The position numbers and the translations under genes are program-made. Below, piece after piece: positions 25,685-55,520 of a stretch of DNA of 64,000 nt. Position 1 is the stretch's first letter; each line of letters begins with the position of its first letter. The notes under the pieces were generated by a model that worked only from the letters and a program-made list of their open reading frames with translations, was not told the origin of the DNA and searched no databases. Origin of the DNA: a virus; IMG/VR virus record IMGVR_UViG_3300045988_176357, positions 32,001 to 96,000 of that record. One strand, given 5' to 3'.

Positions 25685-26416
25685 ATGCCGTAGTTGCAGG
25701 GAACAGTCAATAATATCCAGCGACAGAAGATGCAGTTCATCTCCGATGTGCTGGATCCTACACCAACTGTCATGTACAGAGCTGATGACTATAAGACTCA
25801 GCGCAAGTTGATCTTTGAGCGTGTTAAGAATGCTGTTCAGAAGAGATTCCCTCTGTACAATGATAAATATGTACTGTAGGTGTAGAACCTCGACTACGCA
25901 GATCCATAGGAATTCTCTTATGCTGACCAGAAGAAAGCTGTTCTGTAGGGGACGTCTGTAGGCAGAAGACTTCGTGGCAGCTATGTGCTCAGAGATGCTG
26001 CAACTAATCAGGTGGTCTCAAGAACGAAGCCGCAGACGCTCCTGAAAGTTCCATACATGACAGATCGAGGCACGTTCATCAACTCAGGTCATGAGTACAC
26101 ATTCAATAACATCATGCGTCTGTAGCCTGGTGTGTATACACGCAAGAACAACGATGACGACATTTCAGCACAGTTCAATGTGAAGAAAGGCACTGGAGCT
26201 GGATTCAGCATGACATTTGTTCCCAGCAAAGGTGTCTTCCAGATAAGCAGAGGCACTGCAAACGCTCCTGCATATACTGTGCTGAAAGACTTAGGTGTTA
26301 CAGATTAGCAGATGAAACAGGCGTGGGGCGACTAGCTGTACAATACCAATAAGTAGTACGGTACCGGGTAGAAGGCACGCATAGCTTCCAACAGAATCTA
26401 CAATTACAACTCATGA
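25685..26416 (+). CDS. Multisubunit RNA polymerase beta subunit, N-terminal fragment.
   Basis: AAGGAG RBS and ATG 25685. Frame 2. …DRGTFINSGHEYTFNNIMRLQPGVYTRKNNDD… aligns with bacterial beta [24 protein letters not shown]. TGA 26414-26416. Confidence 0.6.
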
Positions 26417-27249
26417 GCGTTGCGTCCGATATAGCTAAAGGTATAGTAACCAGATTACCATAGCACTGGGACTGGAAACGCGCTCTTACATATGCCGGTG
26501 TGACAGGAGGCGGAGCTGCGGGTTTGTCTTTGCTGATAAGCAAGCTGCGCAAACACGATAAAAGAAAACGCACACTCAATGCTATTGTATCAGGTTTGTC
26601 AGGAGCTCTCGGCGGTACTGCGCTTTATACAGGTCTTCAGAACTTCATATAGCTAACAGGAGGGCTTCCTCTTGGAGGTTAGAACCAGCTGCCTGCAGTC
26701 GATACCGACGACAAGGCACCAGGTAAACACTATATAGTGTATATAGGTGGAATGAACACTGCTCCCAGGTATGCCAAGAAGCTGATACCGGGTGCAAATA
26801 TGGCTGTGCTTGACTGGGGATAGCAGGACAAAGCTGTTAACTTTATAAACAGTATCAGAGCTAAAGATAAGGTAACACTTATAGGTCACTCTGCAGGAGG
26901 AGGTACAGCAATAGCTGTAGCCGACAAAGTCAATAGACCTGTAGACAAATTGATAACACTCGATCCTGTAGTGTTAAATCCTGTAAAGCGTCTGTTGTAG
27001 ATGTTCAGAGTAAGAAAGCCTAAATCAGCTGTTACAGCATAGAACTACATACCTTAGGACTACAAACTTAAGGACAGCAGTAACGGATTCCTGTCAAAAA
27101 ATAATCCTATATTGCTTAGACAGGTTCCAGGAATGAATAACACAGTTATTCCGAATTAGGCACATGGGTTGTGGTCTACCGGCTACAGAGCTACGCCTTA
27201 GTCAGCATAGACCTTATTGAATGTAAAAAAGAAGGTAGTATCGATATGA
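26413..27249 (+). CDS. Alpha/beta-hydrolase (lipase or esterase) with an N-terminal membrane anchor.
   Basis: ATG 26413 (ATGA overlap). Frame 1. Nucleophile elbow LIGHSAGGGTA (GHSxG). TGA 27247-27249. Confidence 0.5.
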
Positions 27250-27674
27250 AAAAGTACGCACAAATATGTAAGGACGCCGGTGTTGCTTCGTAGGTTGCAG
27301 GTAATGCCATACAAGCCGCCCTGCCTCATGCAATTGTCAACTCCAATGTACATTAGGACATTAAACTGGGCGCTCTCGGAGCTTTCGGTGCAGCACAGCT
27401 TGTAGCAGCGGCAGCAGCTCTGGCGACGCCTACGAGATCAAACAAGCAACAGCTTAAAGCCGGTATCTCTCCATGGCATACTCTTGGTAATCTGCTAGTA
27501 CCTGGAATGGCTTCTTACAATTTGTACAAGAGGTACGGTAATGCTATGGCTCAGGAATCAGCAGCCGCAAAAGAACGCGACATCCAAGGTGCGCTCAAGG
27601 CGACCAAAGACAAAGACGCAAATGTGAGGTAGGCAGCAAAAGCCTATCTTAAGATGCGTAAAGCGAAGGCATAA
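27246..27674 (+). CDS. Hypothetical protein.
   Basis: ATG 27246 (ATGA overlap), frame 0, TAA 27672-27674. Confidence 0.35.
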
Positions 27675-27686
27675 GCAGAGGACACA

Positions 27687-27917
27687 ATGACGTACAAGCA
27701 AGCATACGCTAAAGTGGCTTAGCTCAAGTCTCTTTAGGAGCAGAACAAGTAGAACACTCCTATGACCTACATGCAGGCGCACAGAAGAATGCAGCGCAGC
27801 ATCAACGACATGCTCAAACCTCACGAACCCGATATTGCACAGGCAAAACCTGACAACAAGCTTACAGTAGATGCTCCTGAAGGATCGCCTTCCTAGACAC
27901 TTGGCAATGTAAAGTAA
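27687..27917 (+). CDS. Hypothetical small protein.
   Basis: ATG 27687, frame 0, TAA 27915-27917. Confidence 0.3.
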
Positions 27918-27940
27918 GCTTACACACAGCACATTCAATG

Positions 27941-27990
27941 GGCCGCTTCCCTTCAAAACTGGCAAGGGAGGTGGCCCATTTGTATTATAT
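27941..27990 (+). terminator. Terminator-like hairpin.
   Basis: Near-palindrome gggccgcttccctt…aagggaggtggccc followed by a T-rich run. Confidence 0.4.
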
Positions 27991-28041
27991 GCACAAACAG
28001 ACACGGGGTCTGCAAAACAAACGAACTGAAAGGTATTGAAA

Positions 28042-28404
28042 ATGCAAATCAAATCCTTGGATGGAGTCATGCACGAAGTCTCACCTGCTTAGGTATAGCG
28101 GGTGTACAAGATGCTTCCGGCGCATGCCTCAAAGCAAATGAAGGTCTAGGAGGATGTAGAGCTCAATTAGGTGCTCGAAACGTTCGACTGGAAGTCGCAA
28201 AAGTACATGTAGAAGGCGGGACATAACATCAAGCGTATCGTGTAGCTGTAGGCATTGCCGACTACCGAAGATGATGTGAAAAGCGCACTGGCGCATGTTC
28301 TGTGTCACGGATGCCCTGAACGGATAGCGGATGCTCTGTATGAGTCCATCTAGTTCTAGGTATCAAGATTTATGAAACATCTCGTCGACGAATACATGGA
28401 GTAA
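28042..28404 (+). CDS. Hypothetical protein.
   Basis: ATG 28042, frame 1, TAA 28402-28404. Confidence 0.35.
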
Positions 28405-28411
28405 AACGAAT

Positions 28412-28930
28412 ATGGATATAATGGGATTGCTGGTGCCTATTCTTTCAGGCTCACCTGAGATAAAGGGCAAGTTGGAATCGGTGTTCGGACAGCCTGTCGA
28501 TCACATAAGCAAATGTGTGAGTCAGTTCATGGACGGCATAAAGAATGGTCCGGGTTTAGTGGATAAGTAGCTGCAGAAACAGCAGAGATTTATGCACATT
28601 TACCAGAGCGGACTGCGCATGGGCTTCCAGGATTACTAGGCGTAGATAGCCGCAGCCGATTGCGCTGGTTATCCCGTTATAGACGTTGCAAACTCCTTCG
28701 CTTAGCGGCGAGGATGGAACTGCACAATATAGGAAATATAGCAGCTCCATGACAAAATCATGCCCAGATTCATGTAGATGGGCAGGAAAACCGGACTGTT
28801 TCAAACTGAAAAGAAAACCTAGACAGCTCCAAAAGGGATCCCGAGCGTGCAGGTTACAGGAAGTGCGAAATAGCCTCCGTGGAGAACGGCGGAACAGCCA
28901 AAAGGTGCACCTGTTCCACCTGTAAAATAA
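28412..28930 (+). CDS. Hypothetical protein.
   Basis: ATG 28412, frame 2, about 11 TAGs, TAA 28928-28930. The 348-aa minus-strand standard-code ORF overlapping here looks antisense. Confidence 0.35.
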
Positions 28931-28954
28931 CAGCACCTGAAAATGAGGTAAGAA

Positions 28955-29497
28955 ATGAGTTACAATGATACGAATTGCGGTCACACCGGATGGGGTGTGG
29001 GTCTGTCTGCCATAATCGGCGGCGCTCTTGGATACTGGGCAGGTCGTTCCAGCGGTCCCGGAGGGTTTGGAGGGTACGGATGTTACGGCTTCCCGGCAGG
29101 GTATGCTGTGGCTGCTTAGAACGGTCACTGTTCGACATGCTTCGAGCAGGGTGTTGAGTCCGGTCAGACTCTCGCAGGTCTGAACTACATCGGCCAGCAG
29201 GTTGCTTCTAACAGCAGAGACATCGCCAACTCGATGACAGCTCTCAGCAACCAGCTCAACAATCAGACAGCTGCTATCCAGGCGCGTTTCGATGCGCTCA
29301 ATCAGCAGAAGATCGCGGATCAGGCTGCCTAGATCGCGGCTCTGCGTACGCAGAACGTTGTCGGTCTCAATGCTGCTGCTACCAACATGCAGCTCACGAG
29401 TCTGAACGATAAGGTCAGCTCTATCATAGCTGGCTGCGCAGTCAGGTCTGTCAATGCATGTCCGACGAACAACTGCTGCGGCTGCTCTAATCAGTGA
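28955..29497 (+). CDS. Type-II-like membrane protein: N-terminal transmembrane segment, coiled coil and Cys-rich C-terminus. Spanin-like architecture.
   Basis: GAGG RBS and ATG 28955. Frame 2. TGA 29495-29497. Confidence 0.35.
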
Positions 29498-29549
29498 TAA
29501 CCGATGAGGGAGGTTTCCGCCTCCCTCGCAACTAAGATGGAGGTTCACA

Positions 29550-29873
29550 ATGGCATGCTGCGCATTGGTAAAGAACTGCGGACGCTGGCAAGTGTATGCC
29601 ACTACAAAGGCTACAGGAGCCCAATATTACAGGATTTATGCTTGCCTCTGCAATCTGCAGAGATGCCCGCAAATAACCTGCGATATAGTGTCAGCCGGAG
29701 CCTCCGACTCCAGTGAAGCCACGTTGGTTACAAACTGCGGAGCGATTATCCCGCTGGTCAAGAGCTCTACACTGGCCCCGGTAACTGTGGGCTAGCTTCC
29801 GGCCGGAACCAGTATGGACGTTGTCGTGAAGACAGTCAACCAGATCCCGCAAGGTGTGGTTATTGGAGTCTGA
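29550..29873 (+). CDS. Hypothetical protein; frame choice uncertain.
   Basis: Frame 0 reads through one TAG to TGA 29871-29873. A frame-2 alternative (29535-29716) overlaps. Confidence 0.2.
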
Positions 29874-29892
29874 GGTAATCTCAGGTCCGCAA

Positions 29893-29930
29893 AGCCCTCT
29901 TACTGCAACAGGTAAGGGGGCTTTTTTGTG
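29893..29930 (+). terminator. Rho-independent terminator.
   Basis: Hairpin aagccctcttac…gtaagggggctt followed by a T-run. Confidence 0.6.
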
Positions 29931-29987
29931 CTCTGCTCTTACGCGCTAAGCTTTTTGATATACTTCAGCTACAGAAAGGAAACCTTC

Positions 29988-32900
29988 ATGGCTCCATTTA
30001 ATACCTCCGGCAAAGCTCCCAAGAACGCGCAAGACTGGGTCAGGTAGCTTCGCTTTTCCAACGATGTAAACATGAGCACTGTCGGTGTGGATACAGACAG
30101 AGTCACTCCTTAGCTCATGCTCGCTTCCAGCAAGAAACTTCTCGGAATCTCCAGAGGCTAGCAGGAAGGAGACGCGAAGGACTCGCTCAGATACCAGAAA
30201 GTGTTCGGACCTGTAGAGTACTTTGCGTAGAGAATACAGAAGGACGGAGGCAGCGTAGCCAGATCAATGCTGTGGAAGGCTACCAACAGAGGCAACGTCG
30301 ACTTCATCAACTCAGGCAGTCTGTAGCCGCACGTCAGTGCAGTGTTCCACCAGAGTAATCTTTCGCAGTTCGTCGACAACAGCACACCTCTCGACGGCAT
30401 CGACAACTCCATGAAGGTCACACGTGTCGGTGAGGGCGGTATATCCAGCGACTAGGTTGCGCCTATTGAGATGCGTCTTGTGCAGCCTTCTTACTATGGG
30501 TACATCGGTTCGGCTCGTACTGCATAGCGCTGTTACAGAGCCGATACACTCATTCTGACCAAGAAGGGCTGGAAGCCTGTAACACAGATGTCCATGGACG
30601 ACGAGTTCGCCACACTCATAGACGGCAGACCTGCATGGCACAGACCTATAGCGCTCAACAGCTACGACCATGATGGACCTATGTACTGTTACAACGGTCG
30701 CTACATCAAGTTCTCCGTCACTCCCAGTCACAGGATGTATGTAGCACAGGATAAAGACTACAGCATACAGTACATCGATCAGGTCTTCGGCAATACAGTG
30801 AAGGTTCTGTGCGCTGTCGACAAGGCGTCCAAAGTCGACTAGAAGCAGAGGTGGTTCTACTTGCCGCAGGTATAGTCCCCAGCAGCCAACTGCAAGAACA
30901 TATAGAAAGTGGACATTGTCGACTTCGCATAGTTCATGGGCTGGTATCTCAGCTAGGGCAGCCACGACTTACGCACAACCAAGCGAGGACAGAATTACAG
31001 AGTCCGTATTACACAGTCTCCTACAAAGAATCCTGAGCACTATGCACAGGTGCTGTAGCTTATGGACAGACTTCCGTTCACCTACAGCATAGACAGCAGA
31101 GACGGATCAGCCAATATTACAATCCTTCGGAAGCAGCTATACATGTATGTCAAACAGTTCGGACACAGTGAAGACAAGTTCATCCCTGAGTGGATCTTCC
31201 ATGCTCCAACTGCAGCGAGATGGGCATTCGTCGATGCGATCCTTAAGGGTGACGGCAAAGGCGCCAGAGATCTGTGCACCATTTCAAGCAGACTCGCAAA
31301 TGACTTTGCAAGGCTCATGTTCGAGCTCGGACAGTCTGTCAATATCATAAAAGAGCTGCAGAAATACGAGCACACAAAACGTCAGGTCAACCCCTAGGAA
31401 GATTTCCTGTACACAGTTACCTGGCACAGAACATTCTAGTCCACACTGCAAGGGCTTGGATAGAGATCAGGATATTATGTATAGGAATATAAGGGCAAGG
31501 TCTACTGTCCCACTGTCCCGGGAGGTCTCGTATATGTGAAGCTTCCGGGAGCTGCAAAAGGTTTCTGGTGCGGCAACAGCCCCGGCATCACAGGTTACAT
31601 GACAAAGAACGTCATGAAGGGTACAGACGGCAAGCTGTACCAGAACATGCTCAATGTTCGTACAGGTAAGATAGAGCCTGTTGACTCACAGAAAGCTGCA
31701 GCCTCGGTAGTCACAACCAACTAGTACATGAACACGGACGACGAATACGTGTACGCAATGGGCGGTCCCAGAGGCGTACGCATTGTCAAGAAGTCCGATA
31801 TCGACTACATACTTCCTCACTCGGATGATGCGTACTCAATGGCAGCCAACTACGTGCCCATGTATTCAGGCATCAAGTCGATGCGTCTGCTGATGGGCTG
31901 TTTGCATCCGGATACACCTGTGCTTGTTGTAGACAAAGACGGATACACAGACATCATCCCTGCAAAGAGAGTGGGACATGTCGGCACCATATATCTTGCA
32001 GGCTGTGACAGCAACGGCAGCGAAGCTATGTACAAGGTAAGGAACGTTGTTCCCAGAGTGCCTGACAAAAAGAGCAAGTTCCGCAAGATCATACTCCAGT
32101 CCGGCAGAACACTCATCACATCACCGTGCCACAAGTGGTACATATACAAAGACGACAAGTTCAACCTTGTTCCTGCTTCGTAGCTCAAACAGGGCATGCT
32201 TGTTCCAAGAACAGTGTTCCAGACTGTACCTGTAAGGAGTGCAACTGTAGCAGGCAAGCCTGTCACAAGAGAGATAGCAGTCCTTATGGGAAGACTTTGC
32301 GCCTCTTTGTAGGTAGTGGGAACAACTGTCAGGTTCTCTTTCGTTCGCGACAGGAACCCTGAAACAGACCAGAGACAGGACATCACAGACGCTCTTGCAC
32401 AGCTCGGTGTTGTGAACTACACGATATACACGCACAAATAGCAGACCTGGTGCAACATCAAGGACTGCGTCTTCAGGGACTGGATTGCGTAGAACATCGG
32501 TCGCGATTAGCAGCACAAACGCATACCGAAAAGCATGCTCTCACTCGACAGAGGCTATACGAGCATCTTCCTCGATTCCTTCTTCAAGACTCTGGATACA
32601 GTCGCATAGGACATCACAGGTGACAACTGGCTGCTCAGGCTTCCCAATCCCACTGTGCGCGACGGTGTTGCGTTCATGCTCACGAAGATCGACACCGATA
32701 CCAATTTCAGAGACGCAGTGCTTCCTGATCACAGAATCCACAGAGCACTGCACTTGCTTCCCATACAGAGAGGCAAGCACGATGTCATCCTGTAGCCCAT
32801 TGTCAGCATAGAGGAAATGCCGACACCTGGAATGATGATCGACATCGACTGTGACGACAACGTGTACGCAGTTGCGAACGGCATCATCACACATAACAGC

Positions 32901-35900
32901 AAGTACGGAACACAGGCAGTCCCTCTCCAGTAGCGTTAGGCTCCTTTTGTTCGCGCACTTGACTAGCAGTCCGGATAGGACATGCCTACGAGACTCGGAA
33001 GACTCCTCGGCACACAGTGGGCATAGAAGCCAGGTATGGTGAAAGCTGTTCGCAAGGACAGAATCGACATGCTGTACGACGACGGCACGAAGGGATCAGT
33101 GTATCTGTACGACAACTTCCCTGCCAATGCGAAGGGCTGGCTGACCAACTACGTGAAGGTCAAGGCCGGTGACAAGGTTGCTAAGGGGCAGCTGCTGGCG
33201 TCTTCCAACTACACTGACGACAACGGCGTTGCAGCTACAGGCAGGAACCTGCGTGTAGGCTACATGAGCTATCATGGCGCGACGTATGAGGATGCCTGTG
33301 CACTGTCGTAGTCGGCTGCGAAGAAGATGGGCTACACGATCATGTACAAGACAGGCATGGACAAGGACAAGTCCATCCGTACGTCCAAGCAGCTGTACAA
33401 CACCTGGAAGCCAGGACAGTACACAAAGTAGCAGCTGTAGAAGCTGGACGATTTCGGCGTGGTCAAGCCGGGCACTGTTTTGCAACCTGGCGACCCGATG
33501 ATCCTTGGTATCCGAACTACTGAGCCCTCGCCCGGCACACTTGGCAAGAGGATCCTCACCGATGTTACCTAGACATGGTAGCACAGCACACCGGGCACAG
33601 TCACGGACGTGACGAATACCAAGAGCGGCATCAAGGTGTACGCTACCGTCAGCAAGCCACTGTAGGTAGGTGACAAGATGTGCTACGATGAGTAGACGTA
33701 GGTACTGACAGCTGATGGCTGGAAGCGTTTTGCTCAACTCACATTGCATGACAAAGTGTACACGCTCGATCCTGATTCCGATACCATATAGCTGCAGCAC
33801 CCTGTGATGGTACACAGATACAGACATAAGGATCCGATGTACAAGCTCTGCACAAGAGACATCGACCTTATGGTCACTCCCAACCACAGGAACCTTGTCA
33901 GGATACATGCCGCACAGGGACCTGCCAAGTATCGGCTGGTGCAGGCAAGTGAGCATTATGGCGAGCTGCTGTAGATGCGTACAGGTGCGGAAGGTGCTCG
34001 CCGGGATGTGCCCGTGAACTACGCTGCGGACGACGTGTAGCAGTGGGTCGCCTACGACGGCTACGTGTACTGTGCCACTGTGTAGAAGTACCATACGCTG
34101 TACGTGCGCAGGAACGGCAAGGCAGTATGGTCAGGCAACTCTGGCTTCTAGGGCTCCAAAGGCACGGTCGCACAGGTCATCCCTGACGACAAGATGCCGA
34201 GGGACTCGCAGGGCAGGCCGCTGTAGCTGCTGTTCGACCCGCTTGGAATCATCAGTCGCACAAATCCCTCGCAGCTCATGCAGGCAGGACTCGGCAAAGT
34301 GGCAGCCAAGACAGGCAAGCCCATAGTGATGCCTCAGTTCATGCCCAAGGGACAATCAAGGCTCAAGTATGTCAAGGACCTCATGAAGAAGAACAATGTT
34401 CCATGGTCCTAGGACGTGTACGATCCGTAGTCAGGGCGCACAATCAAGAACGTCTTCACAGGCGTCGCCTACTACATGCCTCTCAAGCACCTTGCATAGT
34501 CCAAGATGAGTGCACGAGGCACTGAAGGGTACGATGCATCAGGTGTGCCGAAGTCCGGTGGTGAGCATGGAAGCAAGAAAATAGGACAGCTGTAGAGCAG
34601 CGCTCTGGTCGGACACGACGCCTTCGACTTCCTCACTCAGGACGCCAAGCTCATACGCGGCCAGTCCAACGCCGACTTCTGGCGCTCCATTCGCACAGGC
34701 CAGATACCTGTCGTCCCGGGCTAGCCTCTCGTGCACAAGAAGTTCTTCGCGCACCTGCAGGCTTCTGGACTCAACGTCCGCAGATCCAAGTAGGGCGTCT
34801 CTCTGTTCGCACTCTCCACAAAGGACGTGGACGACATGGCAGGCAACAGATAGCTCAAGTCAACAGACACATACGAGCAGAAGAACTTCAGACCCATCGA
34901 CGGCGGTCTCTTCGGACAGGACATCTTCGGACCCGACGGCATGAACTGGGGCTACATTCAGCTCGACAGCCCTCTCCCGAACCCCGTCATGTAGTAGCCG
35001 CTTGCGCGTCTCCTGCGCATGTCCGACAAGGACTTCCAGGCAGTCGCTCAGGGCAGAGCCACGGTCAATGGCATCTCCAACGCAACATAGATGAAACAGG
35101 CGCTGGCAAAGATCGACCTGTAGAAGGAAGCCCAGCAGTCGCTCGTATAGCTCAAGGATGCACGGCCCTCAAAGAAGGACGCTGCGCTGAAGCGCTATGT
35201 AGCCATTGCCAAGATGCGCGACAACGGTGTTCCTCCTCAGGACTACATGCTGGACAGAATACCGGTGCTGCCTCCCAAGTTCCGCCCGATCACACAGCAC
35301 GGCGGTCTCACAATGGTAGCAGACAGCAACTACCTGTATGCGCAGCTGCTGAACGCAAGGGACGACCTGCGCTAGGCACAGAAAGAAGGACTGCCCGCTG
35401 AGTACATCACCGACGCGAACGCGAAGCTTTACACGAAGTGGAAGGAACTGGTGGGGCTGTACGACCCATAGGACGTGAAGCTGAAGAACAAGTCGGTGAA
35501 GGGCCTGCTGAAGTGGGCCCTCGGCACGAGTCCCAAGCGCTCGGCGTTCGCCACGAAGGTGCTGGGGTCGACGGTGGACACTGTGGGACGCGGAGTCATT
35601 GTTCCCAGTACTAAATTACGATTGAATGAGATCGGGATGCCGGTGGACATGGCGTGGGATGTATATGCGCCTTTTGTGGTGCGCAAGCTGGTGCAGCGGA
35701 ACTACACACCTGTGGACGCCATGAAGATGGTCAAGTAGCGTGTGCCTGCGGCGTTCGATGCACTGCAGCAGGCGGTGAGCGAGCGGCCTGTGGTCATGAA
35801 CCGCGCTCCCTCGCTGCACAAGCTCAGTCTCATGGGCTTCAATGTGAGGCTGACAAGCGGCAAAGCTATCAAGATCAACCCCTCAATTGTTGTCCCGTAC

Positions 35901-37889: not shown

Positions 37890-38218
37890 CATACGCACAG
37901 GCATACGGACTCACCAAGCAGGCTAACACATAGCAGACTGCGGATAGCGCATTGCAGGATGCCTTCAACCTCGGCGGCCGAATGGGAGGCGCTGTCGGTG
38001 GAGGCACTGCAGGACTTGTAGGCGGAGGTCTTGCAGGCGCCGCGCTTGGGTACAATTTGCCTGACTGGTTCAGCAAGGCACAGAAAGCGGGCAAGCTGAA
38101 CAAGATTCTGGCTGCACTGGGCGGCGGTGTGCTCGGCGCAGGTGCAGGTCTGGTTGCCGGTGCTCATGGCGGTCACTGGATGGGCGGCCGCATCATGGAC
38201 GCAATCTCGAAGCAGTAA
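37886..38218 (+). CDS. Small Gly-rich (glycine-zipper) membrane protein.
   Basis: ATG 37886 overlaps the RNAP TGA (ATGA). Track ORF 37952-38218 extended upstream across 2 TAGs. TAA 38216-38218. Confidence 0.4.
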
Positions 38219-38278
38219 CGTGCAGCTGGGCCGTACAACTAAGAATCGAAGAACATATACCTAGCAGTTGATGGCATA

Positions 38279-38971
38279 ATGCGTACCTACACACAGATAT
38301 ACAAGCAAGCCAGAGATCTGAGAGATGCAGCAAAAGACGCCCGATGGCGTGCTTAGCTGAAGCACTTTGTGGATACCCTTCCGGATCTGTCACTTATGCA
38401 TCCTGATCTGACTCCGCAGCAGTACGCCGCCAAGGTGAAAGCTTCTCCGCCAGTTCCTTTACAGCCTTTCTCAGCTAAAGTTCTGCGTCCCTATTCCAGT
38501 GCTGCCGGTACTTACAAGCAGAACTTACAGAATGCAGCCATAAATGCCCTTGCGCAGACATAGTCCAGTAATAACAGGTTCGCCGTATCTGCTCCCGATA
38601 GGAAAGGCAGACAAGCTGTTGGAACATACCAGATACGTAGGCCAGCATTGGAACAGCTGAAGAAATGGAAGCTTGTTAAGCCGCATGTTACACAATAGGA
38701 TATTCTGTATGATGCATAGCTGAACAAGACACTAGGACCGCAGTACTTTCAGCGTATAAGTAAAGGCAGCCCATCTCCAGCTGTAGCCTATGCAAGATAC
38801 TTCAGAGGGCCTAATGCATATAAGAATGCTCTGAACAGAGGCTAGCTGCCAAAGGGAACCACGGAATAGGCATGGGCAAATAAGTTCAAGTAGGTACAGA
38901 GATACATGCAGAACTATAACAGGTAGCTGAAGCGCATTCCGGCAACCTCGAAAGGACCTGTGCAGCGATGA
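38279..38971 (+). CDS. Hypothetical protein with weak SLT/lytic-transglycosylase-like signature.
   Basis: ATG 38279, frame 2, about 12 TAGs, TGA 38969-38971. AVGTYQIRRP… and AVAYARYFRGPNAY resemble SLT motifs only loosely. Confidence 0.3.
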
Positions 38972-40272
38972 TCCCAGGGCTCCCCGACAGGCGCAACTAC
39001 GGTGACCTCGCGTCGCTGAAGCCATAGCAGACGTACACATTGCTGCGGCAGCTGCACAATGCACAGCGTGCCGGACGGCACGTGGACTTCCGCATAGGTT
39101 CTCCGTAGCTTGGTCTGTTCAGCTGGGCAGCACCTAAAGACCTTCCGACGCAGGCAGGCCAGAAACGGCTCCTCATATCGCAGCCTCTGCACACGTACGC
39201 ATACAAGGACTTCACAGGTCCCATCTATTCAGCTTATGGGCGTGGCACTGTATAGAAGCTTTAGTAGACGCCTATAGTCATCCTGCAGAACAGCCCTGAC
39301 AAGATCAAGTTCACACGCGCCGACAAGCGCAACGCGCCGGTGTACACAATGATCCGCACGCGCAACGGCAACTGGCTCACGTCCATCGTCAGCGACGACG
39401 CGCCGCCTGTCATCAGGCAGTACGACAAGTAGCACTTCAAAAGCATCTCACTGCAGCAGGCAGCCAATCTACTGGACCTTGGCGCTCAGGCCTATCCGAA
39501 GGCGGACGGCACAGGAGCACTCGCACAGGTGCGCAAGAACAGCATATAGGTGTACGGGATCCGCAAGGACAAGAACGGAAATCTGATACGATACACAGAC
39601 CACATAGGCGGACTCAGGGACATGAAGATCCCTCCGCAGCTTGTAGGCAAGGTATTCCGTGTAGAGGTCACAGGTTAGCAGAATGGCAGACCCATACAGC
39701 CCAATACTCTCTCAGGACTGCTCAATGCTTCTCTGCAGAGGAACATACAGGCACGCAAAGACAATAACATCAATCTGTTCATGTATGCACTTGCTCTTGC
39801 AGACAAGCAGGATCAATATGACAAACAGCAAGTTAACGAGCTTGTCTCCCAGCTGCAGTCTCCGAAGCTGCGTACATTGCCGAAGGTAACAGCACAGTAG
39901 TTCCAGGATCAGCTCAGACAGATGCGTGAGGGTACACATCCCATAACTCAGTAGGGCTTCATAATCCATCCCAAAGGTGGAAGACCGCTCAAAGCTAAAT
40001 TGCTGCAGGATGCAGATGTCATAGTACGTGATATATTCCCTGCATAGACACAGGATGGACAACGCGCAGGAGGATTCACGTACAGCTTGCCTGGACAGTA
40101 GACTGTTGTAGGCAGAGTAGGCACCGGTTTTACACATCAGCAGCTGCAGGATATGCTGCAGCATCCATAGCAATACACAGGCAGGACAGCAAAGATACAT
40201 GCGATGTCTCAGTATCCTTCAGGTGCATACAGAGCTCCTGCCTTCATATCTTTCAGAGCGGAAGGAGATTAA
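38968..40272 (+). CDS. ATP-dependent DNA ligase.
   Basis: ATG 38968 (ATGA overlap). Frame 1. Motif I AYPKADGTGA (KxDG). Motif IV (TAG)GFIIHPK. C-terminal motif VI YRAPAFISFRAEGD (≈LRFPRFIRIRED). TAA 40270-40272. Confidence 0.55.
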
Positions 40273-40617
40273 ATGCCCATTCATCAGAACGAAGACGGTA
40301 CCTGGCAGTGGGGCAAGTCAGGTAAGAAATACAAGAACAAGCAGGACGCAATAAAACAGATGCAGGCTATCTTCGCTTCCGGTTACAGAGAACCTGGGCA
40401 ACGCAAGAAAGCCGGGCTTACCTACATGTCTGCGTACCTGATTAAAAGAGCTGGTGGCGGTTCCTTCCAGGACTACATGAACTCCAATATTCCTGTGGAA
40501 AATGTGGAGCAGAGTCCGCAAAACAATGTGAAACAGGAACCTGAGAAACCTGCACAACAGCCGCCGACCCAGCAGCTTAACAGGCTTACGGGAATCTCTT
40601 TCTAGGAAATCAAATAA
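40273..40617 (+). CDS. Hypothetical protein.
   Basis: Track ORF 40273-40605 plus one TAG to TAA 40615-40617. GAAGGAG RBS. Confidence 0.45.
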
Positions 40618-40630
40618 GGACCTTATTAAT

Positions 40631-40969
40631 ATGACTTACATCGAAGCCTACAATATGTATAAGCAGGCTGCTCAGGTGAATGCTCCTGCTGCACATCCTT
40701 CTGTAACACCATCCGTTGCCACGAAACCTGCATTTGGTCAGTCGTATGTTAACGGCGGTTCAAAAATGCCTGACCTGCCGGGCACACGTACAGCAGTCAA
40801 AGGTGATACACCGTATCTGTACTGGACGCAGCTCGGCGGGAATAAACATATGCCGTGGCAAAAATGGCTGGGTCAGTTTCTGAAGGATAATCAGCTGAAA
40901 GCGGACGCCAAAGGCAGAGTTCTCCTGAAGCCAGGTCAGAACTATATGCTTGGCCCTGGAATTGAATAA
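40631..40969 (+). CDS. Hypothetical protein.
   Basis: Complete standard-code ORF with no TAG. TAA stop. Confidence 0.45.
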   Translation: MTYIEAYNMYKQAAQVNAPAAHPSVTPSVATKPAFGQSYVNGGSKMPDLPGTRTAVKGDTPYLYWTQLGGNKHMPWQKWLGQFLKDNQLKADAKGRVLLKPGQNYMLGPGIE

Positions 40970-40980
40970 TTGGAGTGACT

Positions 40981-41832
40981 ATGAGCTTTAAAGACATTTT
41001 CAAAGATATGAACAAGCAGGCGGCTTCGATGCTGACACCTTAGGCCATGCAGGCAGCGGCTGTGCCGCCTGAAGGTACTCCGCCTGCAGGTGCACCTATG
41101 GGAGGTGCTCCGATGGATCCGTCTATGATGGGTGCTCCGGCCGGTATGCCTGTGGATCCGGCGATGGCAGGCGCTGCTCCTGCAGGTGCTCCAATGGATC
41201 CGGCAATGATGGGTGGAGCTCCTATGGGGCCTGGACCTGATCCTGCCGGTGCGCCTGGAATGCCTGGAGCATCCGGAGCGTGGATGACTGATCCGATGTT
41301 CCTTGACTTCCTTATGCAGTCAGGTTTCCAGATCGATCAGGTTGGCAACGTAATCGATCCTAATGGACAGCCTATGGATCCTGCTATAATGGATCAGCTC
41401 TACGCTTAGTTTCAGGCACAGATGGGTGGAGCACAGCCAGACGTACAGGGAGCTCCCGCTGAAGGTGCACCTGCATAGCAGCCGCCGATGGAGCTGCCTT
41501 AGGAAGTGCTCAATCAGGTTGCAGGAATTGTGCAGGATGTTATCGACAGCTCTCTGGATGAGAAACTTTCCGCACTGGAGAAGAAGATATCTGCTTTCGC
41601 ATAGAAGCTCGATACCTTGAAGACCATGCTGGACGATATCCTTATCGGTAACACCAACCAGGATTCGCTTAACAAGTCCTAGGAAGCTTCCATTGACTCA
41701 CAGCTGTAGAAAGATCTGCGTTCAGCACAGCAGGTGGATGTGCAGTAGCCTGGAGGAACAGAACAGCTGCTTGCACCTGCTGCGGCTGTTCCTGCGTCCG
41801 GCAGCATATTGTAGCTTATGAGAGGTGCTTGA
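40981..41832 (+). CDS. Pro/Ala/Met-rich repeat protein (PAGAPM repeats) with a C-terminal coiled coil.
   Basis: ATG 40981, frame 1, includes track ORF 41047-41409, TGA 41830-41832. Confidence 0.4.
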
Positions 41833-42998
41833 TGGAAGTGTCCAGAAACATGAAGATTCTCGCAAAGCTTGCAAGCATAAATAAAGAAGCGCAGGGCAAT
41901 CCGATGCTCGTGTCTTCCCTTATCGGTGCCGGTGCTGGAGGACTTGCAGGAGACCTCACTTCACAGCTGCTGTGGAAGAAGCCGACTAAGACGCAGCGGA
42001 TTCTGTCTGCATTGGTCGGCGCCGGTCTTGGTGCAGGAACTGGCGCTGCTGTTACAGGTTCATTCGGACACAAAGCTGTATAGAATATTCCTGCGAGATT
42101 GCAGTCTATGTATTAGAATGCTATCGGCACAGTGTCAGGCAAATTGCCCTCCAAAGAGGACTTTGCATCCATGTCTCCTACAGCGAAAGCTATGTATGGC
42201 AGCACCAATACAGGAGATAAAGCTGCTGACAGACTAGGATCTGTTGTCAACACTCTGAAAAAGTCAGTAGTCGGATAGAATGACAAAGGCAGCGGTGTTA
42301 TAATTCCAGCACAGTTGGCAGCAGGAGGTATTGGCGGAGTCTTCGGCTGGAAAGGTGCTGTGTAGGCCCTTAACAGGCAGGGCAGACGAATACAGCTTAT
42401 AAAGGCTCTGGAAGATAAAGCAGGTGCTAATCCTGCGTTGTGGCGAGCTGCAGATATCTTGAAGATTTTCAAAATAAAAGGCGGCAATCCTGTTACTAAA
42501 CTTATCGATTAGATACAGGAAAGCTCTAAGCTTACAACGTCACCTCGTGCATATAAAAATAACCTTGCCAGTATAGTTCGGAATTTCCATAAGAGGAATG
42601 AAGCCAGTAAGGCTGCAGGTATGGGAGCTATAAGTGATACAATCCGGCAACGGTATTATGGAAAGTACAGGAACAAAGATCTTGATGCCTTCAGGCTGAA
42701 GGGCAGACAGAATGCCACAGCATTAGAGACCTTGTTCGGTTTGTCGAAACGCAGAGCCGGGCAGGTATTCGACAACACAGGTATCAAGACCGGTATATCC
42801 GCTGACGAAGCTGCCAAACTCCGGAATATGGTGACAAATCGTCCTCTTGGAAAGATGAAAGGTGCGGCTGGACTGCTGGCAGGTATCTTGTCTGCTGCTG
42901 CGTCGGCAGGTGGAGCCGGATATATAGGCAACGCACTTGCAGGTAACAATGCACGGTATCAGCAGGCGCTGACAAACCTGTAGAATGCTTATAAGTAA
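41832..42998 (+). CDS. Gly-rich membrane protein.
   Basis: ATG 41832 (TGATG overlap). Frame 0 links track ORFs 41829-42083 and 42621-42983. TAA 42996-42998. Confidence 0.4.
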
Positions 42999-43009
42999 CA
43001 GGTGCTGAA

Positions 43010-45319
43010 TTGGCTGTCACCACATTAGGCAGATAGGTAATCAAACAAGCGCTTCCTTAGAAGTACAGGAGCTTCGTTGACTAGCCCCTCACAAAGGCTC
43101 GCCAATAGAAGCTCACTACGCAGCTTGCCAAGGACAATCCATAGGCTTACATAGACATCCTGCAGAAGCTGAATGCCATCGCGTAGTCGACTGTATCTAC
43201 GTACGGCAAAGACACTACCATCACTCTGGATGACATAGATGCTGGAGAGAATGTGCGCAAGATGCATGCTAAGCTCCAGTAGCTGATACGTACTGTTGTG
43301 AACAGGAAAGATCTCACTCCGTAGCAGAAGTAGCAGAAGGTCATCTAGCTGGGTTACAAGTACACTGCACTGATGAAGGACCTTGGATTAAAGGATGCTC
43401 AGTAGCGTCGTACAGGTATTGCAAATCAGATTGCATCTGGATCCCGTGGCAACCCTGTACAGCTTATGCAGCTTCTTGTCGGCGACATGCAGATGCGTGA
43501 TGCCGCCAACAGGGACATCCCTTATCTTGCTACTATGCCGTATGTGGACGGTGATTCGCCTATGTCCTACTGGGCATCGAGCATGTCCGGTAGAAAATCA
43601 ACTTACGATACGCAGGCTGCTACAGGCATGGCCGGTTACCTGAACAAACAGGCAACCAATGTTATTCAGGCAACACCTATAGCTATGCGAGACTGCGGCA
43701 CTACCAATACAGGTGTGCCGGTATCAGCTACAGATCCTTAGAATGTAGGCTCCATACTGCTGCGCCCATGGAAGAACCATCCTGCAGGAACACCTGTCAC
43801 GTAGGAGATGCTGGACTAGGCTTAGTAGGGTGACGAGATTGTGATCCGCAGCCCGAACACATGCAAGGCTCACAACGGTGTGTGCGCTATGTGCTCAGGC
43901 ATCCAGGAAAACGGCAAGCTGCCTGCTGTAGGAAGCTACGTGGCACTGAATGCCATGAAGTCCTTCATCTAGCCGCTTACGCAGGCCGGTGTAAGCTGTC
44001 TGCATCCTGACACAAAGGTAAGTCTGGCTGAAGGTGGATATAAAAGAATAGCAGATATACAGATAGGCGATACTGTAATAGGTTGCGACATAGCAGGTAC
44101 AACTACACCTGTAAAGGTCACCAATGTATTCCATAATGGAATTCAGCCTGTATACAGAACTGTATCTGTTACATAGTCTGGTAAGCACTTGTAGCTCTTA
44201 TCCACACTTACACATAAATGCCTTATGCTGATCTAGGATGCACAAGTTCCAGCACTGCTGCCTATAGGGACACAGGCTAAGAAACGCTATATAGTACTGT
44301 CAGATAGGTCTGAGTAGCAAAAAGCTTAGATAATACAGCAGACATTCGTAGGCGATATATAGACCATAGATATCTAGGTTGACCATCCTGATCATCTGTT
44401 CCAACTTGTTGATTATCAAGTGGTAGCAAATTCGAAGCATGGTTCTGGTATGGGCGGCAAAAAGAGCTAGGACCCAGACGGCTAGGACCAGCCTACAGGG
44501 TTCGACTCCATAGCGCGCATGCTCCTTGTGCCCTCTACATTCCCTGGTGGCGCAGTGCTCTCTCAGGTCGATGGTCGCGTGTCATCTGTACGTCCTGCTC
44601 CGCAGGGAGGCAACTACATTACAGTCGGCACCAATACGGTATATGCGCCACGCGTACGTACAGTAACAGTAAAGCCCGGCGACATCGTGTAGGCTGGAGA
44701 CACCCTTACCAATGGCGTGCCTAATCCCATGTAGGTAGTCAAATACAAAGGTATCGGCTAGGGCAGACATTACTTCACGAACAAGCTTTTCGAGCTGCTT
44801 CCGAAATCCGGCGCAGGCACAGCAAGACGTAATGTGTAGCAGTTCGCCCGCGCCCTCATCAACAAGGTTCGCATAACATCCGACCAGGGTTTCGGCGGCT
44901 ATTATCCTGGCGACATTGCAGATTACGACGATATAGCGTAGAAATGGAGACCCAGAGAGGACAGCAAGATGCTGAACCTCAAGGAAGCCACAGGAAAGTA
45001 CCTGTAGGAGCCAGCACTGTATTACAGCATAGGAACAAGAATAACACCCAAGGTAGCCAAGAAACTGCAACAGTACGGTTACCAGCAGGTGAATACCAAT
45101 TAGAATCCTCCGCCGTTCTAGGCGAAGTTCGTAAGCTCCAAAGCGTTCTCTACTACGTAGAGGCGCTGGTTGCCCAGACTTAACGGAGAACGGCTTAAAG
45201 AGGCTATCTTCGACGCTGCAAGAACTGGAATAACTGACAGTTATGACAGCCCTTCATTCGTCGACAAGCTTATCATAGGCCCCTATAATCCGGCAAACAT
45301 TAAACCAGCAGGAATATGA
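43010..45319 (+). CDS. Multisubunit RNA polymerase beta' subunit, C-terminal fragment, carrying one mini-intein.
   Basis: Frame 2 opens after TAA 42992-42994; start codon uncertain (TTG 43010, or ATG 43262 which lies inside homologous sequence). …SGSRGNPVQLMQLLVGDMQM…YWASSMSGRKSTYDTQAATGMAGYLNKQATNVIQATPIAMRDCGT aligns with beta' …[20 protein letters not shown]…[45 protein letters not shown]. C-terminal GDTLTNGVPNPMQVVKYKGIGQGRHYFTNKLFEL… is also conserved. TGA 45317-45319. Confidence 0.7.
43997..44431 (+). mobile_element. Intein 5, a mini-intein in the beta' trigger-loop region.
   Basis: SFI(TAG)PLTQAGVS|CLHPDTKVSLAEGGYKRIADIQIGDTVIG… ends …YQVVAN|SKHGSGMGG. Confidence 0.6.
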
Positions 45320-53334: not shown

Positions 53335-53344
53335 GGAGCGCACA

Positions 53345-53752: not shown

Positions 53753-53763
53753 AGGAAACTATT

Positions 53764-54348: not shown

Positions 54349-54404
54349 TCCGCTGTAAGATAAACCAGGGGAGCGTGTCTCCCCGATAACTATAGGAACG
54401 CAAT

Positions 54405-55418
54405 ATGTACACTTCCGATCAGATTGCTGCCATCAATCAGGAGTTTAAAGACAAGCTCCTCAGCGATGACTCCGCTATGGTGAAACAGGCGGGACTCGCA
54501 GGCACCACATATTTCCGTACGCGCATTCGCTAGAATGCCGTATACCGCAAGCTTCTTCCTCCGGTCTCCGTTACGGCTGACAACTTCGATGTGAATGAAG
54601 CCTCCGACCTTCCCAGCATGATTGTCGAGCTCGACATCAACTCCGAAGGTGCAATGCAGGTTCCGTTTGAAACGGCTACCACCGGCGCAACCTTCAACGG
54701 ACGCAAGGCGAGATGTGAATTCGGGCGCATCATGACGCCGAAGTACGAGATCGACAAAATCCGTCTTACCGGATACAAGATGCCGATCCTTGACATCCTG
54801 TACGACCTCATGCTCAAAGACATCATGGATGTCGAAGACGAAGCGTGGGCGGCTGTCAACCAGGAAATCGTCGGCAATGCTGATAACCAGACCGATCAGA
54901 TCGCTGAATTCGGTCTCCGCCGCGCTATCCGCCAGACCTGGGATCGTGAAGGCGTTGCCGGTCTCGGTGCTGCGGCTGCCGGATTGCTCCGCACGAAGGG
55001 CAAATTGAAACCGTCCAAAGGACTCATGAACGAACTTCTGTACATCAGAATGGCTGAGTGGGATCGAAATACCGTTGGCGGCGATATGGCTCAGGACATG
55101 CTGTTCGATGGTGTCACGACCGGCAAGCTGAACAAGCTCGATGTCCTCGTCACCTCCAAGGATACTGTCTGCTCCGAATACGATCTGTGGGTGTTCACTG
55201 ATCCGCAGTTCTATGGTGCGAACTACACGTACCAGGATGTCAGCATGGTTACGGACGAAAAGGATGGAATCTTCCTGAACTTCTTCGCCTATGAGACCAT
55301 CGGCGGTATCGTTGTGAACAGAGCCGGTGTCTGCAAGGTCACGTACGATGCGAAGAACATCAACGAGTGCACCTTCTGGACTGATCCGGTTGATGCTTCC
55401 GACGCCATCGGTGGCTGA
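54405..55418 (+). CDS. Major capsid protein (probable), 337 aa.
   Basis: ATG 54405, frame 0, a single TAG, then track ORF 54591-55418 ends at TGA. Followed immediately by a strong terminator. Position after scaffold and decoration genes. Confidence 0.5.
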
Positions 55419-55439
55419 TTGAAATCAGGTTGCTGATTA

Positions 55440-55472
55440 TAAAAGCCCTCCGTAACAGGAGGGCTTTTTTTA
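55440..55472 (+). terminator. Rho-independent terminator.
   Basis: aaagccctcc…ggagggcttt followed by T7. Confidence 0.7.
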
Positions 55473-55520
55473 TGTCCTTAATGTGGTAAACTGTAAGAAA
55501 CCAACAAGAAAGGAAGTATT

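What the first reader, a model, noticed from the sequence alone, without database searches (positions are those of the whole stretch)
25685..45319. The multisubunit RNAP is encoded in three dispersed pieces, interleaved with unrelated genes
The beta N-terminus (25685-26416) is separated from the beta-C/beta'-N fusion (29988-37889) by about 3.5 kb of small genes. These include an alpha/beta-hydrolase (GHSAG) whose start overlaps the beta-N stop. The beta' C-terminal fragment (43010-45319, itself carrying an intein in the trigger-loop region) lies a further 5 kb downstream. The DNA ligase and several membrane and Pro/Ala-rich proteins sit in between. The split points differ from the beta-N/beta-C/beta'-N/beta'-C pattern of phiKZ-like virion RNAPs.
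Basis: partly seen in the sequence, partly recalled or inferred. Interest (0 to 1): 0.55.

Follow-up and report, generated by a model that had tools for sequence, protein, structure and literature searches.

The report
Three-piece, intein-laden phage RNA polymerase
A large uncultured phage encodes its own cell-like RNA polymerase as three separate genes scattered among unrelated genes and interrupted by five self-excising protein elements; these genes only make sense if the stop codon TAG is read as glutamate, a reassignment I did not find reported for phages.

Summary
All three ORFs are open only if TAG is a sense codon. 25685-26416 is RNAP beta-N (E=2e-25 to the N-terminus of Salmonella phage Arash gp206). 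29988-37889 is beta-C fused to beta'-N, with four inteins. 43010-45319 is beta'-C, with a mini-intein in the trigger loop. The layout is not an assembly artefact. At least 120 database clusters hold a stand-alone ~245-aa beta-N, and four relatives' loci show the fusion gene and beta'-C always separated by variable cargo genes. More distant relatives, including cultured phage Arash, keep beta-N fused, so they have two pieces. The genes lie between portal and major capsid genes. In Arash both RNAP proteins are among the most abundant virion proteins, so a packaged, injected RNAP is the best reading (inferred). It is a new variant of a known kind. The most striking result came in passing: TAG here stands for glutamate, not glutamine. 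TAG falls on invariant-Glu sites only, GAA/GAG are depleted, and a relative's suppressor tRNA derives from tRNA-Glu. The window encodes a tRNA(CUA) interrupted by a group I intron.

The parts
25685..26416 (+). RNAP beta N-terminal piece (243 aa, 10 in-frame TAG). TAAGGAG Shine-Dalgarno before the ATG; the TGA stop overlaps the next gene's ATG.
26413..29873 (+). Cargo island 1: seven small ORFs. These are an alpha/beta-hydrolase with GHSAG (26413-27249), then 27246-27674, 28042-28404, 28412-28930, 28955-29497 and 29550-29873. The content differs between relatives.
29891..29924 (+). Strong intrinsic-terminator-like hairpin (14-bp stem plus T run), just upstream of the fusion gene.
29988..37889 (+). 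beta-C::beta'-N fusion gene. The precursor is 2633 aa with 64 in-frame TAG; the extein is 1231 aa. It carries GDK...SKG and GADFDGD active-site motifs.
30531..31577 (+). Intein 1 (349 aa, C...GN|S), inserted in the beta 'TPEG' motif.
31899..32897 (+). Intein 2 (333 aa, C...HN|S), inserted in the beta 'LMG|...QAVP' motif. It is present in almost all split-clade relatives.
33681..34139 (+). Mini-intein 3 (153 aa, C...GN|S), inserted in the beta 'GDKM|SG..SKG' motif.
35922..37622 (+). Insert 4: an atypical LAGLIDADG intein (567 aa, S1...QD|T+1) directly after DFDGD. Its body has 0 TAG and 29 GAA/GAG. An internal sigma70-like promoter lies at 36012-36039, followed by an SD and the ATG at 36099.
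37886..42998 (+). Cargo island 2. It holds a Gly-rich hydrophobic protein, an SLT transglycosylase (38279-38971), a LigD_N + ATP-dependent ligase (38968-40272), two small ORFs, a Pro/Ala-rich protein (40981-41832, a conserved neighbour of beta'-C in relatives), and 41832-42998.
43010..45319 (+). RNAP beta' C-terminal piece. It has a TTG start with an AGGTG SD. The precursor is 769 aa with 35 TAG; the extein is 624 aa.
43997..44431 (+). Mini-intein (145 aa, C...AN|S) in the beta' trigger loop.
58597..58924 (-). Amber-reading tRNA(CUA) needed to translate all three RNAP genes. A 252-nt group I intron (58639-58890) interrupts it between anticodon nucleotides 35 and 36.
19151..21025 (+). Portal gene (context; homologous to Arash gp204).
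54405..55418 (+). Major capsid protein gene (context; homologous to Arash gp226).

Best explanation
The region encodes the catalytic core of a phage multisubunit RNA polymerase of the Arash-like lineage, divided among three genes: beta-N, beta-C fused to beta'-N, and beta'-C.

Proposed sequence of events:
1. The genes are translated only when the phage's own tRNA(CUA) is available, because they contain 109 TAG codons, read as Glu.
2. Five inteins then excise themselves. All sit in active-centre motifs: TPEG, LMG/QAVP, GDK/SKG, DFDGD and the trigger loop.
3. The three polypeptides assemble non-covalently into a beta/beta'-like enzyme.
4. The genes lie in the head module between portal and capsid genes, and the homologous Arash proteins are abundant in virions. 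So the enzyme is most likely packaged into the capsid and injected to transcribe early genes in the next host.
5. The DNA between the pieces acts as variable cargo islands, whose content and length change between relatives.

Shown here: the homology, the split and fusion points, the intein boundaries, the conservation of the layout, and the reading of the code. Inferred: splicing, assembly, packaging and the timing of expression.
For: - Homology of all three pieces.
- Collinear mapping of the extein segments on Arash gp206 and gp216.
- The beta break falls in a non-conserved, length-variable linker of fused relatives. No conserved block is lost and there is no room for split-intein halves.
- The best 120 beta-N homologues are all stand-alone proteins of 229-287 aa.
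- beta-N is conserved about as well as the fusion gene: 58-70% versus 59-70% identity in the same relatives.
- The same three-piece layout occurs in L002, L003 and L004. L005 and Arash have two pieces.
- Synteny runs portal, RNAP pieces, then MCP.
- In Arash virion mass spectrometry gp206 is the top protein (3516 spectra) and gp216 has 1210 (PMC10585845).
- Each piece has its own SD, and a terminator precedes the fusion gene.
Against: - Nothing here shows expression, splicing, assembly or packaging for this phage.
- The Arash proteome lists 116 'virion' proteins. That is generous, and its authors themselves allow for carry-over of abundant proteins.
- Insert 4 has non-canonical termini (Ser1, Gln-Asp at the C-terminus), so its splicing is not assured.
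- No alpha, omega or sigma homologue was found, but only 64 kb of a roughly 180-kb genome was examined.
Confidence: 0.75

Rival explanations
1. The enzyme is a non-virion RNAP. It is made during infection to transcribe middle or late genes and is not packaged. Its position in the structural module is incidental.
For: phiKZ-type phages have such a second enzyme (PMC7598289). The Arash authors note that abundant proteins may contaminate virion preparations.
Against: The genes need TAG suppression, as the structural genes around them do. They sit between portal and MCP in all relatives. In Arash the RNAP has more spectra than the capsid protein. Only one RNAP set was seen, but only a third of the genome was examined.
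Confidence: 0.15
2. The dispersal is an artefact or a sign of decay: a mis-assembly, or an RNAP gene broken by insertions and no longer functional. The beta-N ORF would then be a remnant.
For: The gene is unusually burdened with five inteins. One intein has atypical termini right at the catalytic DFDGD.
Against: The same break occurs in independent assemblies from many samples. All pieces keep intact ORFs, active-site motifs and SD sequences. beta-N evolves at the same rate as the fusion gene. The atypical intein termini are invariant in 8 homologues from both coding types.
Confidence: 0.03
3. The pieces are rejoined covalently (split-intein trans-splicing or ribosomal bypassing), so that a normal full-length beta or beta' is made.
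For: The genome is rich in inteins, and phage genes split by split inteins are known (from general knowledge).
Against: Alignment with fused relatives leaves only about 13 unaligned residues at the beta-N C-terminus and about 15 at the fusion N-terminus. That is too few for IntN and IntC halves, and there are no Hint motifs there. The same holds at the beta' break.
Confidence: 0.03

Closest known systems
Salmonella phage Arash RNAP (gp206 + gp216; PMC10585845), with Vibrio phages D69/D181/D148
   Same: beta is fused to beta'-N in one gene, and beta'-C is a separate gene several kb away. The genes lie next to the portal and upstream of the MCP. Identity is about 30% over 99% of the extein. The Arash proteins are abundant in virions.
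   Different: Arash has two pieces, with beta-N contiguous. It has no inteins and uses the standard code. Here beta-N is a separate gene 3.5 kb upstream, there are five inteins, and TAG is a sense codon.
phiKZ/AR9-type jumbo-phage virion and non-virion RNAPs (PMC7598289)
   Same: A phage-encoded beta/beta'-like enzyme made of several polypeptides. No alpha or omega homologue was seen in the 64 kb examined. beta' is split after the DPBB domain. The genes are dispersed.
   Different: Those enzymes have 4-5 polypeptides with beta-C and beta'-N separate. Their beta' break coincides with the cyanobacterial site; here it is about 40-60 residues upstream. The sequences here are far closer to bacterial RNAP. 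phiKZ-type phages were not among the listed tblastn hits.
Cyanobacterial/plastid rpoC1-rpoC2 split; archaeal rpoB (B'/B'') split; Helicobacter/Wolbachia rpoB-rpoC fusion (from general knowledge)
   Same: Natural precedents for splitting or fusing the two largest subunits without loss of function.
   Different: The positions differ. Those genes remain adjacent in an operon. None combines an N-terminal beta split, a beta-beta' fusion and a beta' split.
mReC clade (Weinheimer & Aylward 2020, PMC7481178)
   Same: Uncultured tailed phages with beta/beta' genes that still align with cellular RNAP; some contigs exceed 200 kb.
   Different: That paper does not describe fusion, splitting or inteins (0 occurrences of 'split' or 'intein'). 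Membership was not established; the contig ids I looked for were not in its supplements.
Stop-codon-recoded phages, code 15 (TAG to Gln; Borges et al., Peters et al.)
   Same: TAG is a sense codon in most structural genes. The phage encodes a tRNA(CUA). A subset of genes is free of the recoded codon.
   Different: Here TAG corresponds to Glu, not Gln. Borges et al. state that they saw only TAG to Gln and TGA to Trp.

Membership tests
Multisubunit (two-DPBB) RNA polymerase beta/beta' | beta' catalytic NADFDGD motif within the DPBB (Pfam Rpb1_2) | tested here: met
   GADFDGD at aa 1972-1978 of the fusion ORF; Rpb1_2 at 8e-22. phmmer to bacterial beta' gives 6e-50.
Multisubunit (two-DPBB) RNA polymerase beta/beta' | beta C-terminal catalytic domain (Pfam Rpb2_6; GDK...KG motif) | tested here: met
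   Rpb2_6 at 1.8e-39. The motif reads VGDKM|intein|SGF(TAG)GSKG.
Multisubunit (two-DPBB) RNA polymerase beta/beta' | beta N-terminal region present | tested here: met
   The 243-aa ORF matches fused homologues at 1e-40 to 1e-60 and PDB beta N-termini at 4e-4. It has no Pfam hit at E<=0.01.
Multisubunit (two-DPBB) RNA polymerase beta/beta' | beta' C-terminal half with trigger loop (Pfam Rpb1_5) | tested here: met
   Rpb1_5 at 4e-10; phmmer to bacterial beta' at 2e-28.
Multisubunit (two-DPBB) RNA polymerase beta/beta' | alpha dimer and omega assembly subunits | not tested
   None was seen among the window ORFs I scanned, but only 64 kb of a roughly 180-kb genome was available.
Arash-like phage RNAP | beta fused to beta'-N in one gene, with beta'-C in a separate gene in the portal-MCP module | tested here: met
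Arash-like phage RNAP | complete beta (including the N-terminus) within the fusion gene | tested here: not met
   The fusion ORF begins at the equivalent of gp206 residue ~257. beta-N is a separate gene.
Arash-like phage RNAP | protein present in virions | not testable with these tools
   Known only for Arash (PMC10585845).
phiKZ/AR9-type split RNAP | separate beta-N, beta-C, beta'-N and beta'-C polypeptides | tested here: not met
   beta-C and beta'-N form one continuous ORF.
phiKZ/AR9-type split RNAP | beta' split coincides with the cyanobacterial rpoC1/rpoC2 site | tested here: not met
   The fusion ends at about gamma residue 562 of 625. beta'-C starts before residue 1 of RpoC2 (query residue 69 aligns to RpoC2 residue 49). 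I made no direct alignment to phiKZ proteins.
Canonical inteins (inserts 1-3 and the beta'-C insert) | Cys1, a Hint domain, a C-terminal Asn followed by Ser/Thr/Cys, and an extein that is continuous once the insert is removed | tested here: met
   The inserts are C...GN|S, C...HN|S, C...GN|S and C...AN|S. Pfam Intein_splicing, Hint_2 and Hint match. The flanks align without a gap to intein-less homologues.
Canonical inteins (insert 4) | Cys/Ser1, block B TxxH, and a C-terminal His-Asn followed by a nucleophile | tested here: inconclusive
   Ser1, block B (SEDH), two LAGLIDADG motifs and a block F-like WDCTVPGPYTF are present. The C-terminus is Gln-Asp|Thr rather than His-Asn. This is invariant in 8 homologues.
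Genetic code 15 (TAG = Gln) | TAG aligns with Gln in homologues | tested here: not met
   The majority residue at 38 TAG sites is E at 27, D at 6 and Q at 0. At 144 further sites the counts are E 39, D 23, Q 6. At invariant sites TAG falls only on Glu.
Group I intron (in the tRNA) | Rfam Intron_gpI model; U before the 5' splice site and G at the intron's 3' end; precise presence/absence at the site | tested here: inconclusive
   The Rfam score is 31 bits, below the gathering score of 50 (E=3e-5). The ...CUCU|G...AUG|AAA junctions fit. An intron-less allele in L007 lacks exactly these 252 nt.

The most novel reading that the evidence does not exclude
This phage lineage has reassigned TAG to glutamate, a code not reported for phages in the literature I searched. 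The reassignment uses a phage tRNA(CUA) that descends from, or mimics, tRNA-Glu, and in this genome that tRNA must first splice out a group I intron. The virion RNA polymerase is one of the products gated by this switch. It can be made only after the code change. It then needs five protein-splicing events and the assembly of three polypeptides. One of its inteins is still written in the standard code and may be expressible on its own from an internal promoter and start codon.
Probability: 0.5. Interest if true: 0.8.

Novelty: new variant of a known kind. Interest (0 to 1): 0.6.

Why it matters
**For RNAP biology.** The lineage is a natural experiment in how far the two large subunits can be cut and re-joined. 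It has an N-terminal beta split at a new position, a beta-beta' fusion and a beta' split. All are conserved across a large uncultured clade that has a cultured two-piece relative (Arash) for comparison. Five inteins sit in the active centre, which makes enzyme maturation depend on protein splicing.

**For genome annotation.** Pipelines that call these phages 'code 15' put Gln at every Glu-derived TAG. In the closest database homologues this lowers apparent Glu to 1-3% and will mislead structure prediction and phylogeny.

**For the genetic code.** If proteomics confirms it, a TAG-to-Glu phage code would break the generalisation that phages reassign only TAG to Gln and TGA to Trp. It would also raise the question of how GluRS accepts a CUA anticodon.

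Tried and rejected
- **Pfam on the 243-aa piece:** no hit at E<=0.01. Homology had to be shown through Arash and the metagenomic homologues.
- **Megablast of 23 kb against INPHARED phages:** no match.
- **PHROGs on 20 interleaved or flanking proteins:** only the ligase and one weak endolysin-like hit.
- **Group I intron carrying a free-standing endonuclease as an explanation for insert 4:** rejected. The insert is in frame, Rfam finds nothing there at gathering threshold, and eight homologues share Hint blocks with an invariant QD|T end.
- **'Intein-less' relatives (~1565 aa) carrying beta-N:** rejected. Their extra ~330 aa is an intein-2 homologue that Pfam did not annotate.
- **BLAST of the window's suppressor tRNA against phage and E. 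coli tRNAs:** uninformative for identity.
- **Looking for the mReC contig ids in that paper and its supplements:** nothing found.
- **Literature searches for amber-to-glutamate in phages:** nothing relevant.
- **A split intein at the beta break:** rejected for lack of unaligned sequence.


Full report
**1. The observation**

Under the bacterial code the region has no long ORF. Translating the three claimed frames shows 10, 64 and 35 internal stops. Every one is TAG, and each frame ends at TGA. With TAG as a sense codon, the + strand of the whole window becomes a tight array of genes.

Pfam gives these results:
- 29988-37889 has RNA_pol_Rpb2_6 (1.8e-39), Rpb1_1 and Rpb1_2 (8e-22), plus Intein_splicing, LAGLIDADG_3 and Hint_2.
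- 43010-45319 has Rpb1_5 (4e-10) plus Hint.
- The 243-aa product of 25685-26416 has no Pfam hit.

Even so, the top 35 PDB matches of the 243-aa product are all RNAP beta subunits at collinear N-terminal positions, with a best E-value of 4e-4. It aligns to residues 29-210 of Salmonella phage Arash gp206 at E=2.4e-25. It also aligns to the N-termini of about 25 metagenomic homologues at 1e-40 to 1e-60. All three pieces are therefore RNAP, at the stated coordinates.

**2. Anatomy**

Mapping onto Arash gp206 (1525 aa, beta + beta'-N) and gp216 (606 aa, beta'-C) is collinear. It defines four inserts in the large ORF and one in beta'-C.

| Insert | Residues | Termini | Insertion site |
|---|---|---|---|
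| Intein 1 | 182-530 of the fusion ORF | C...GN\|S | beta TPEG motif |
| Intein 2 | 638-970 | C...HN\|S | LMG\|...QAVP |
| Mini-intein 3 | 1232-1384 | C...GN\|S | GDKM\|SG.GSKG |
| Insert 4 | 1979-2545 | S...QD\|T | directly after DFDGD |
| beta'-C mini-intein | 330-474 of beta'-C | C...AN\|S | two residues before the trigger-loop His |

The extein of the fusion gene is 1231 aa, the same as in intein-free homologues such as P0119.

Insert 4 is not an intron. Eight homologues, from both standard-code and recoded relatives, share Ser/Thr1, a block-B SEDH, two LAGLIDADG motifs, and WDCTVPGPYTF...G.VVQD followed by Thr. It is an intein family with atypical termini. I could not test whether it splices.

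Alignment with fused relatives places the beta break in a non-conserved, length-variable linker. No conserved block is lost, and only about 13 + 15 residues stay unaligned, so there is no room for split-intein halves.

On the beta' side the fusion ends at about E. coli beta' residue 554, which is gamma ~562 of 625 in the cyanobacterial enzyme. beta'-C begins before the first residue of cyanobacterial RpoC2. The break therefore follows the DPBB domain, as in cyanobacteria and in phiKZ-type enzymes according to PMC7598289. It lies about 40-60 residues further upstream.

Translation and transcription signals:
- beta-N has a TAAGGAG SD, and its TGA overlaps the ATG of the hydrolase gene.
- The one strong terminator-like hairpin of the region (29891-29924) precedes the fusion gene, which has its own SD.
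- beta'-C starts at TTG behind an AGGTG SD.

**3. Is the layout real and general?**

The extein-only fusion protein finds 546 database proteins.
- Every homologue of at least ~50% identity starts where the window's ORF starts and lacks beta-N.
- Homologues of 41-51% identity, and Arash, carry beta-N fused.
- The best 120 homologues of beta-N are all stand-alone proteins of 229-287 aa.

Genomic context from five assemblies shows how variable the spacing is.

| Genome | Type | beta-N to fusion gene | Fusion gene to beta'-C |
|---|---|---|---|
| Window | split, recoded | 3.5 kb | 5.1 kb |
| L002 | split, standard code | 4.6 kb upstream | one gene |
| L004 | split, standard code | 4.5 kb upstream | two genes |
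| L003 | split, recoded | 6.7 kb upstream | more than 10 kb |
| L005 | fused | fused | two genes |
| Arash | fused | fused | nine genes |

The intervening genes are mostly unrelated between genomes. One exception is a Pro/Ala-rich protein (window 40981-41832) that often sits just upstream of beta'-C. beta-N is as conserved as the fusion gene: 58-70% versus 59-70% identity in the same relatives.

So the three-piece arrangement is a derived, stable character of a large uncultured clade. The gaps between the pieces behave as variable cargo islands.

**4. What it most likely does**

The window is syntenic with the Arash head module. The order is portal (19151-21025), the RNAP pieces, gp218-like and gp222-like structural proteins, then the major capsid protein (54405-55418).

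In Arash, gp206 is the most abundant protein in purified virions by spectral count and gp216 is also high (PMC10585845). The cargo between the pieces fits co-packaged, ejected proteins, but that is inference. It includes a hydrolase with GHSAG, an SLT transglycosylase, a LigD_N + ATP-dependent ligase (KADG motif, PHROG 6e-13), and Gly/Ala-rich hydrophobic proteins.

My best reading is a virion RNAP made late, matured by five splicing events, assembled from three chains, packaged, and injected for early transcription. A non-virion role is the main rival. Artefact, decay and covalent rejoining are unlikely, for the reasons given under the rival explanations.

**5. The code (outside the finding, but needed to read it)**

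In TAG-rich genes the Glu codons GAA/GAG are almost absent. TAG-poor genes (52078-56309, including the MCP, and the body of insert 4) use them normally. Window-wide, GAA+GAG make up 2.5% of codons, but TAG+GAA+GAG make up 5.7%, a normal Glu content.

Alignment evidence, with TAG masked as X:
- At the 38 TAG sites of the fusion extein, the majority residue in 120 homologues is Glu at 27, Asp at 6 and Gln at none.
- The homologues are bimodal. The 18 closest have Gln at these sites with only 1-3% Glu overall. That pattern is expected for recoded genomes translated automatically with code 15. The other 102 have Glu at these sites.
- Ten other genes, compared with the standard-code relative L002, give Glu 39, Asp 23 and Gln 6 at 144 TAG sites. 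The Glu substitution profile fits best, 28 log units better than Gln.
- A third standard-code locus (L010) gives Glu 15, Asp 4 and Gln 0.
- Among 302 positions that are at least 90% invariant in the 102 standard-code homologues, TAG occurs only at invariant-Glu sites (6 of 11). All 4 invariant-Gln sites are CAG.

The suppressor tRNA:
- ARAGORN with introns allowed finds a tRNA(CUA) at 58597-58924 (minus strand), next to a tRNA-Met. A 252-nt intron splits it between anticodon nucleotides 35 and 36.
- Rfam's group I intron model matches this intron below threshold (31 bits, E=3e-5).
- A 92%-identical relative (L007) has the same tRNA without these 252 nt.
- In another recoded relative (L008), the syntenic tRNA(CUA) matches annotated tRNA-Glu genes in 5394 of 5426 E. 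coli genomes over 97-99% of its length. Its anticodon arm matches the window's tRNA but for one base.
- The window's tRNA body is more diverged, so sequence alone does not settle which amino acid it carries.

The phage-recoding literature I could search assigns TAG to Gln. Borges et al. state that they saw only TAG to Gln and TGA to Trp.

I conclude that TAG here encodes Glu, or something functionally equivalent to it. I did not find this described, and it needs proteomic proof.

**6. Insert 4 and the code**

The body of insert 4 has 29 GAA/GAG and no TAG. In all other parts of the RNAP genes, including the other four inteins, TAG accounts for 53-78% of Glu-equivalent codons. The simplest reading is recent homing from a standard-code relative, and such relatives do carry this intein.

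Its first 59 codons are AT-rich. They contain a near-consensus sigma70-like promoter (TTGACA-16-TATATT, 36012-36039), followed by an SD and an ATG at 36099. That Met is conserved in 7 of 8 homologues. Independent, pre-switch expression of the endonuclease part is possible. However, the promoter count in the region is at chance level, so this stays speculative.

**7. Verdict**

The system is a new variant of a known kind. It is an Arash-type phage RNAP with an additional, clade-wide N-terminal beta split, five inteins and variable cargo between its genes. On its own that is of moderate interest. It gains interest from the TAG-to-Glu reading and the intron-interrupted suppressor tRNA on which its expression depends.

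Noticed in passing
whole window; tested on 25685-26416, 29988-37889, 43010-45319 and ten other genes: TAG is a sense codon that corresponds to glutamate, not glutamine. GAA/GAG are depleted (2.5% of codons; 5.7% with TAG added). TAG aligns with Glu or Asp in standard-code homologues. Among invariant sites it falls only on invariant-Glu sites. Database homologues translated with code 15 carry spurious Gln.
   Followed up: yes
window 58597-58924 (-), intron 58639-58890; tRNA-Met at 58932-59007 (-): An amber-reading tRNA(CUA) is interrupted in the anticodon by a 252-nt group I-like intron. Default ARAGORN and Rfam at gathering threshold both miss it. The close relative L007 (c[2636,2709]) has the same tRNA without the intron.
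   Followed up: yes
L008 c[5063,5138]; L011 c[4441,4534]: The syntenic suppressors differ between recoded relatives. L008 has a clear tRNA-Glu derivative. L011 has a 94-nt tRNA(CUA) with a long variable arm (class II, A73), yet its TAG codons still align with the window's TAG codons. This is unexplained.
   Followed up: partly
window 35922-37622 (insert 4), promoter-like site 36012-36039, ATG 36099: The body of the LAGLIDADG intein after DFDGD uses the standard code (0 TAG, 29 GAA/GAG), unlike its host gene and the other four inteins. An 11/12 sigma70-like promoter, an SD and a conserved Met precede it.
   Followed up: partly
window 52078-56309 and 7679-8740: A block of TAG-poor, GAA/GAG-rich genes. 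It includes a very Glu/Ala-rich scaffold-like protein (52078-53334) and the major capsid protein (54405-55418). So the presumably most highly expressed late genes avoid the recoded codon.
   Followed up: partly
window 50099-52027: The homologue of Arash structural protein gp222 carries its own mini-intein (Pfam Hint_2, Intein_splicing; C...HN|C). The L002 homologue has larger intein/LAGLIDADG inserts at this gene.
   Followed up: partly
window 40981-41832; L002 15168-15941; L004 14767-15174; L003 24416-25078: A Pro/Ala/Met-rich protein with a coiled-coil-like C-terminus is a conserved neighbour just upstream of beta'-C in several relatives. The rest of the cargo varies. It could be an RNAP-associated or co-packaged factor.
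   Followed up: no
window 3885-6767, 12716-14440 and neighbours: Tail-fibre-like genes with collagen (GXY) repeats and repeated modules. 7679-8740 has an F5/8 type C (discoidin) domain.
   Followed up: no
fusion ORF around aa 1690-1720 (nt ~35050-35150): By eye, the beta' N-terminal zinc-binding segment of bacterial beta' (the CxC...CxxC motif between 'FGP' and 'GHIEL') seems to be missing: the sequence reads FGPDGMNWGYIQL. The beta-to-beta' linker is only about 25 residues. I did not verify this with a structural alignment.
   Followed up: no
window 27558-28070 (-): A TAG-free 170-aa minus-strand ORF fills the only sizeable gap (27674-28042) in the + strand gene array of cargo island 1. I did not examine it.
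   Followed up: no
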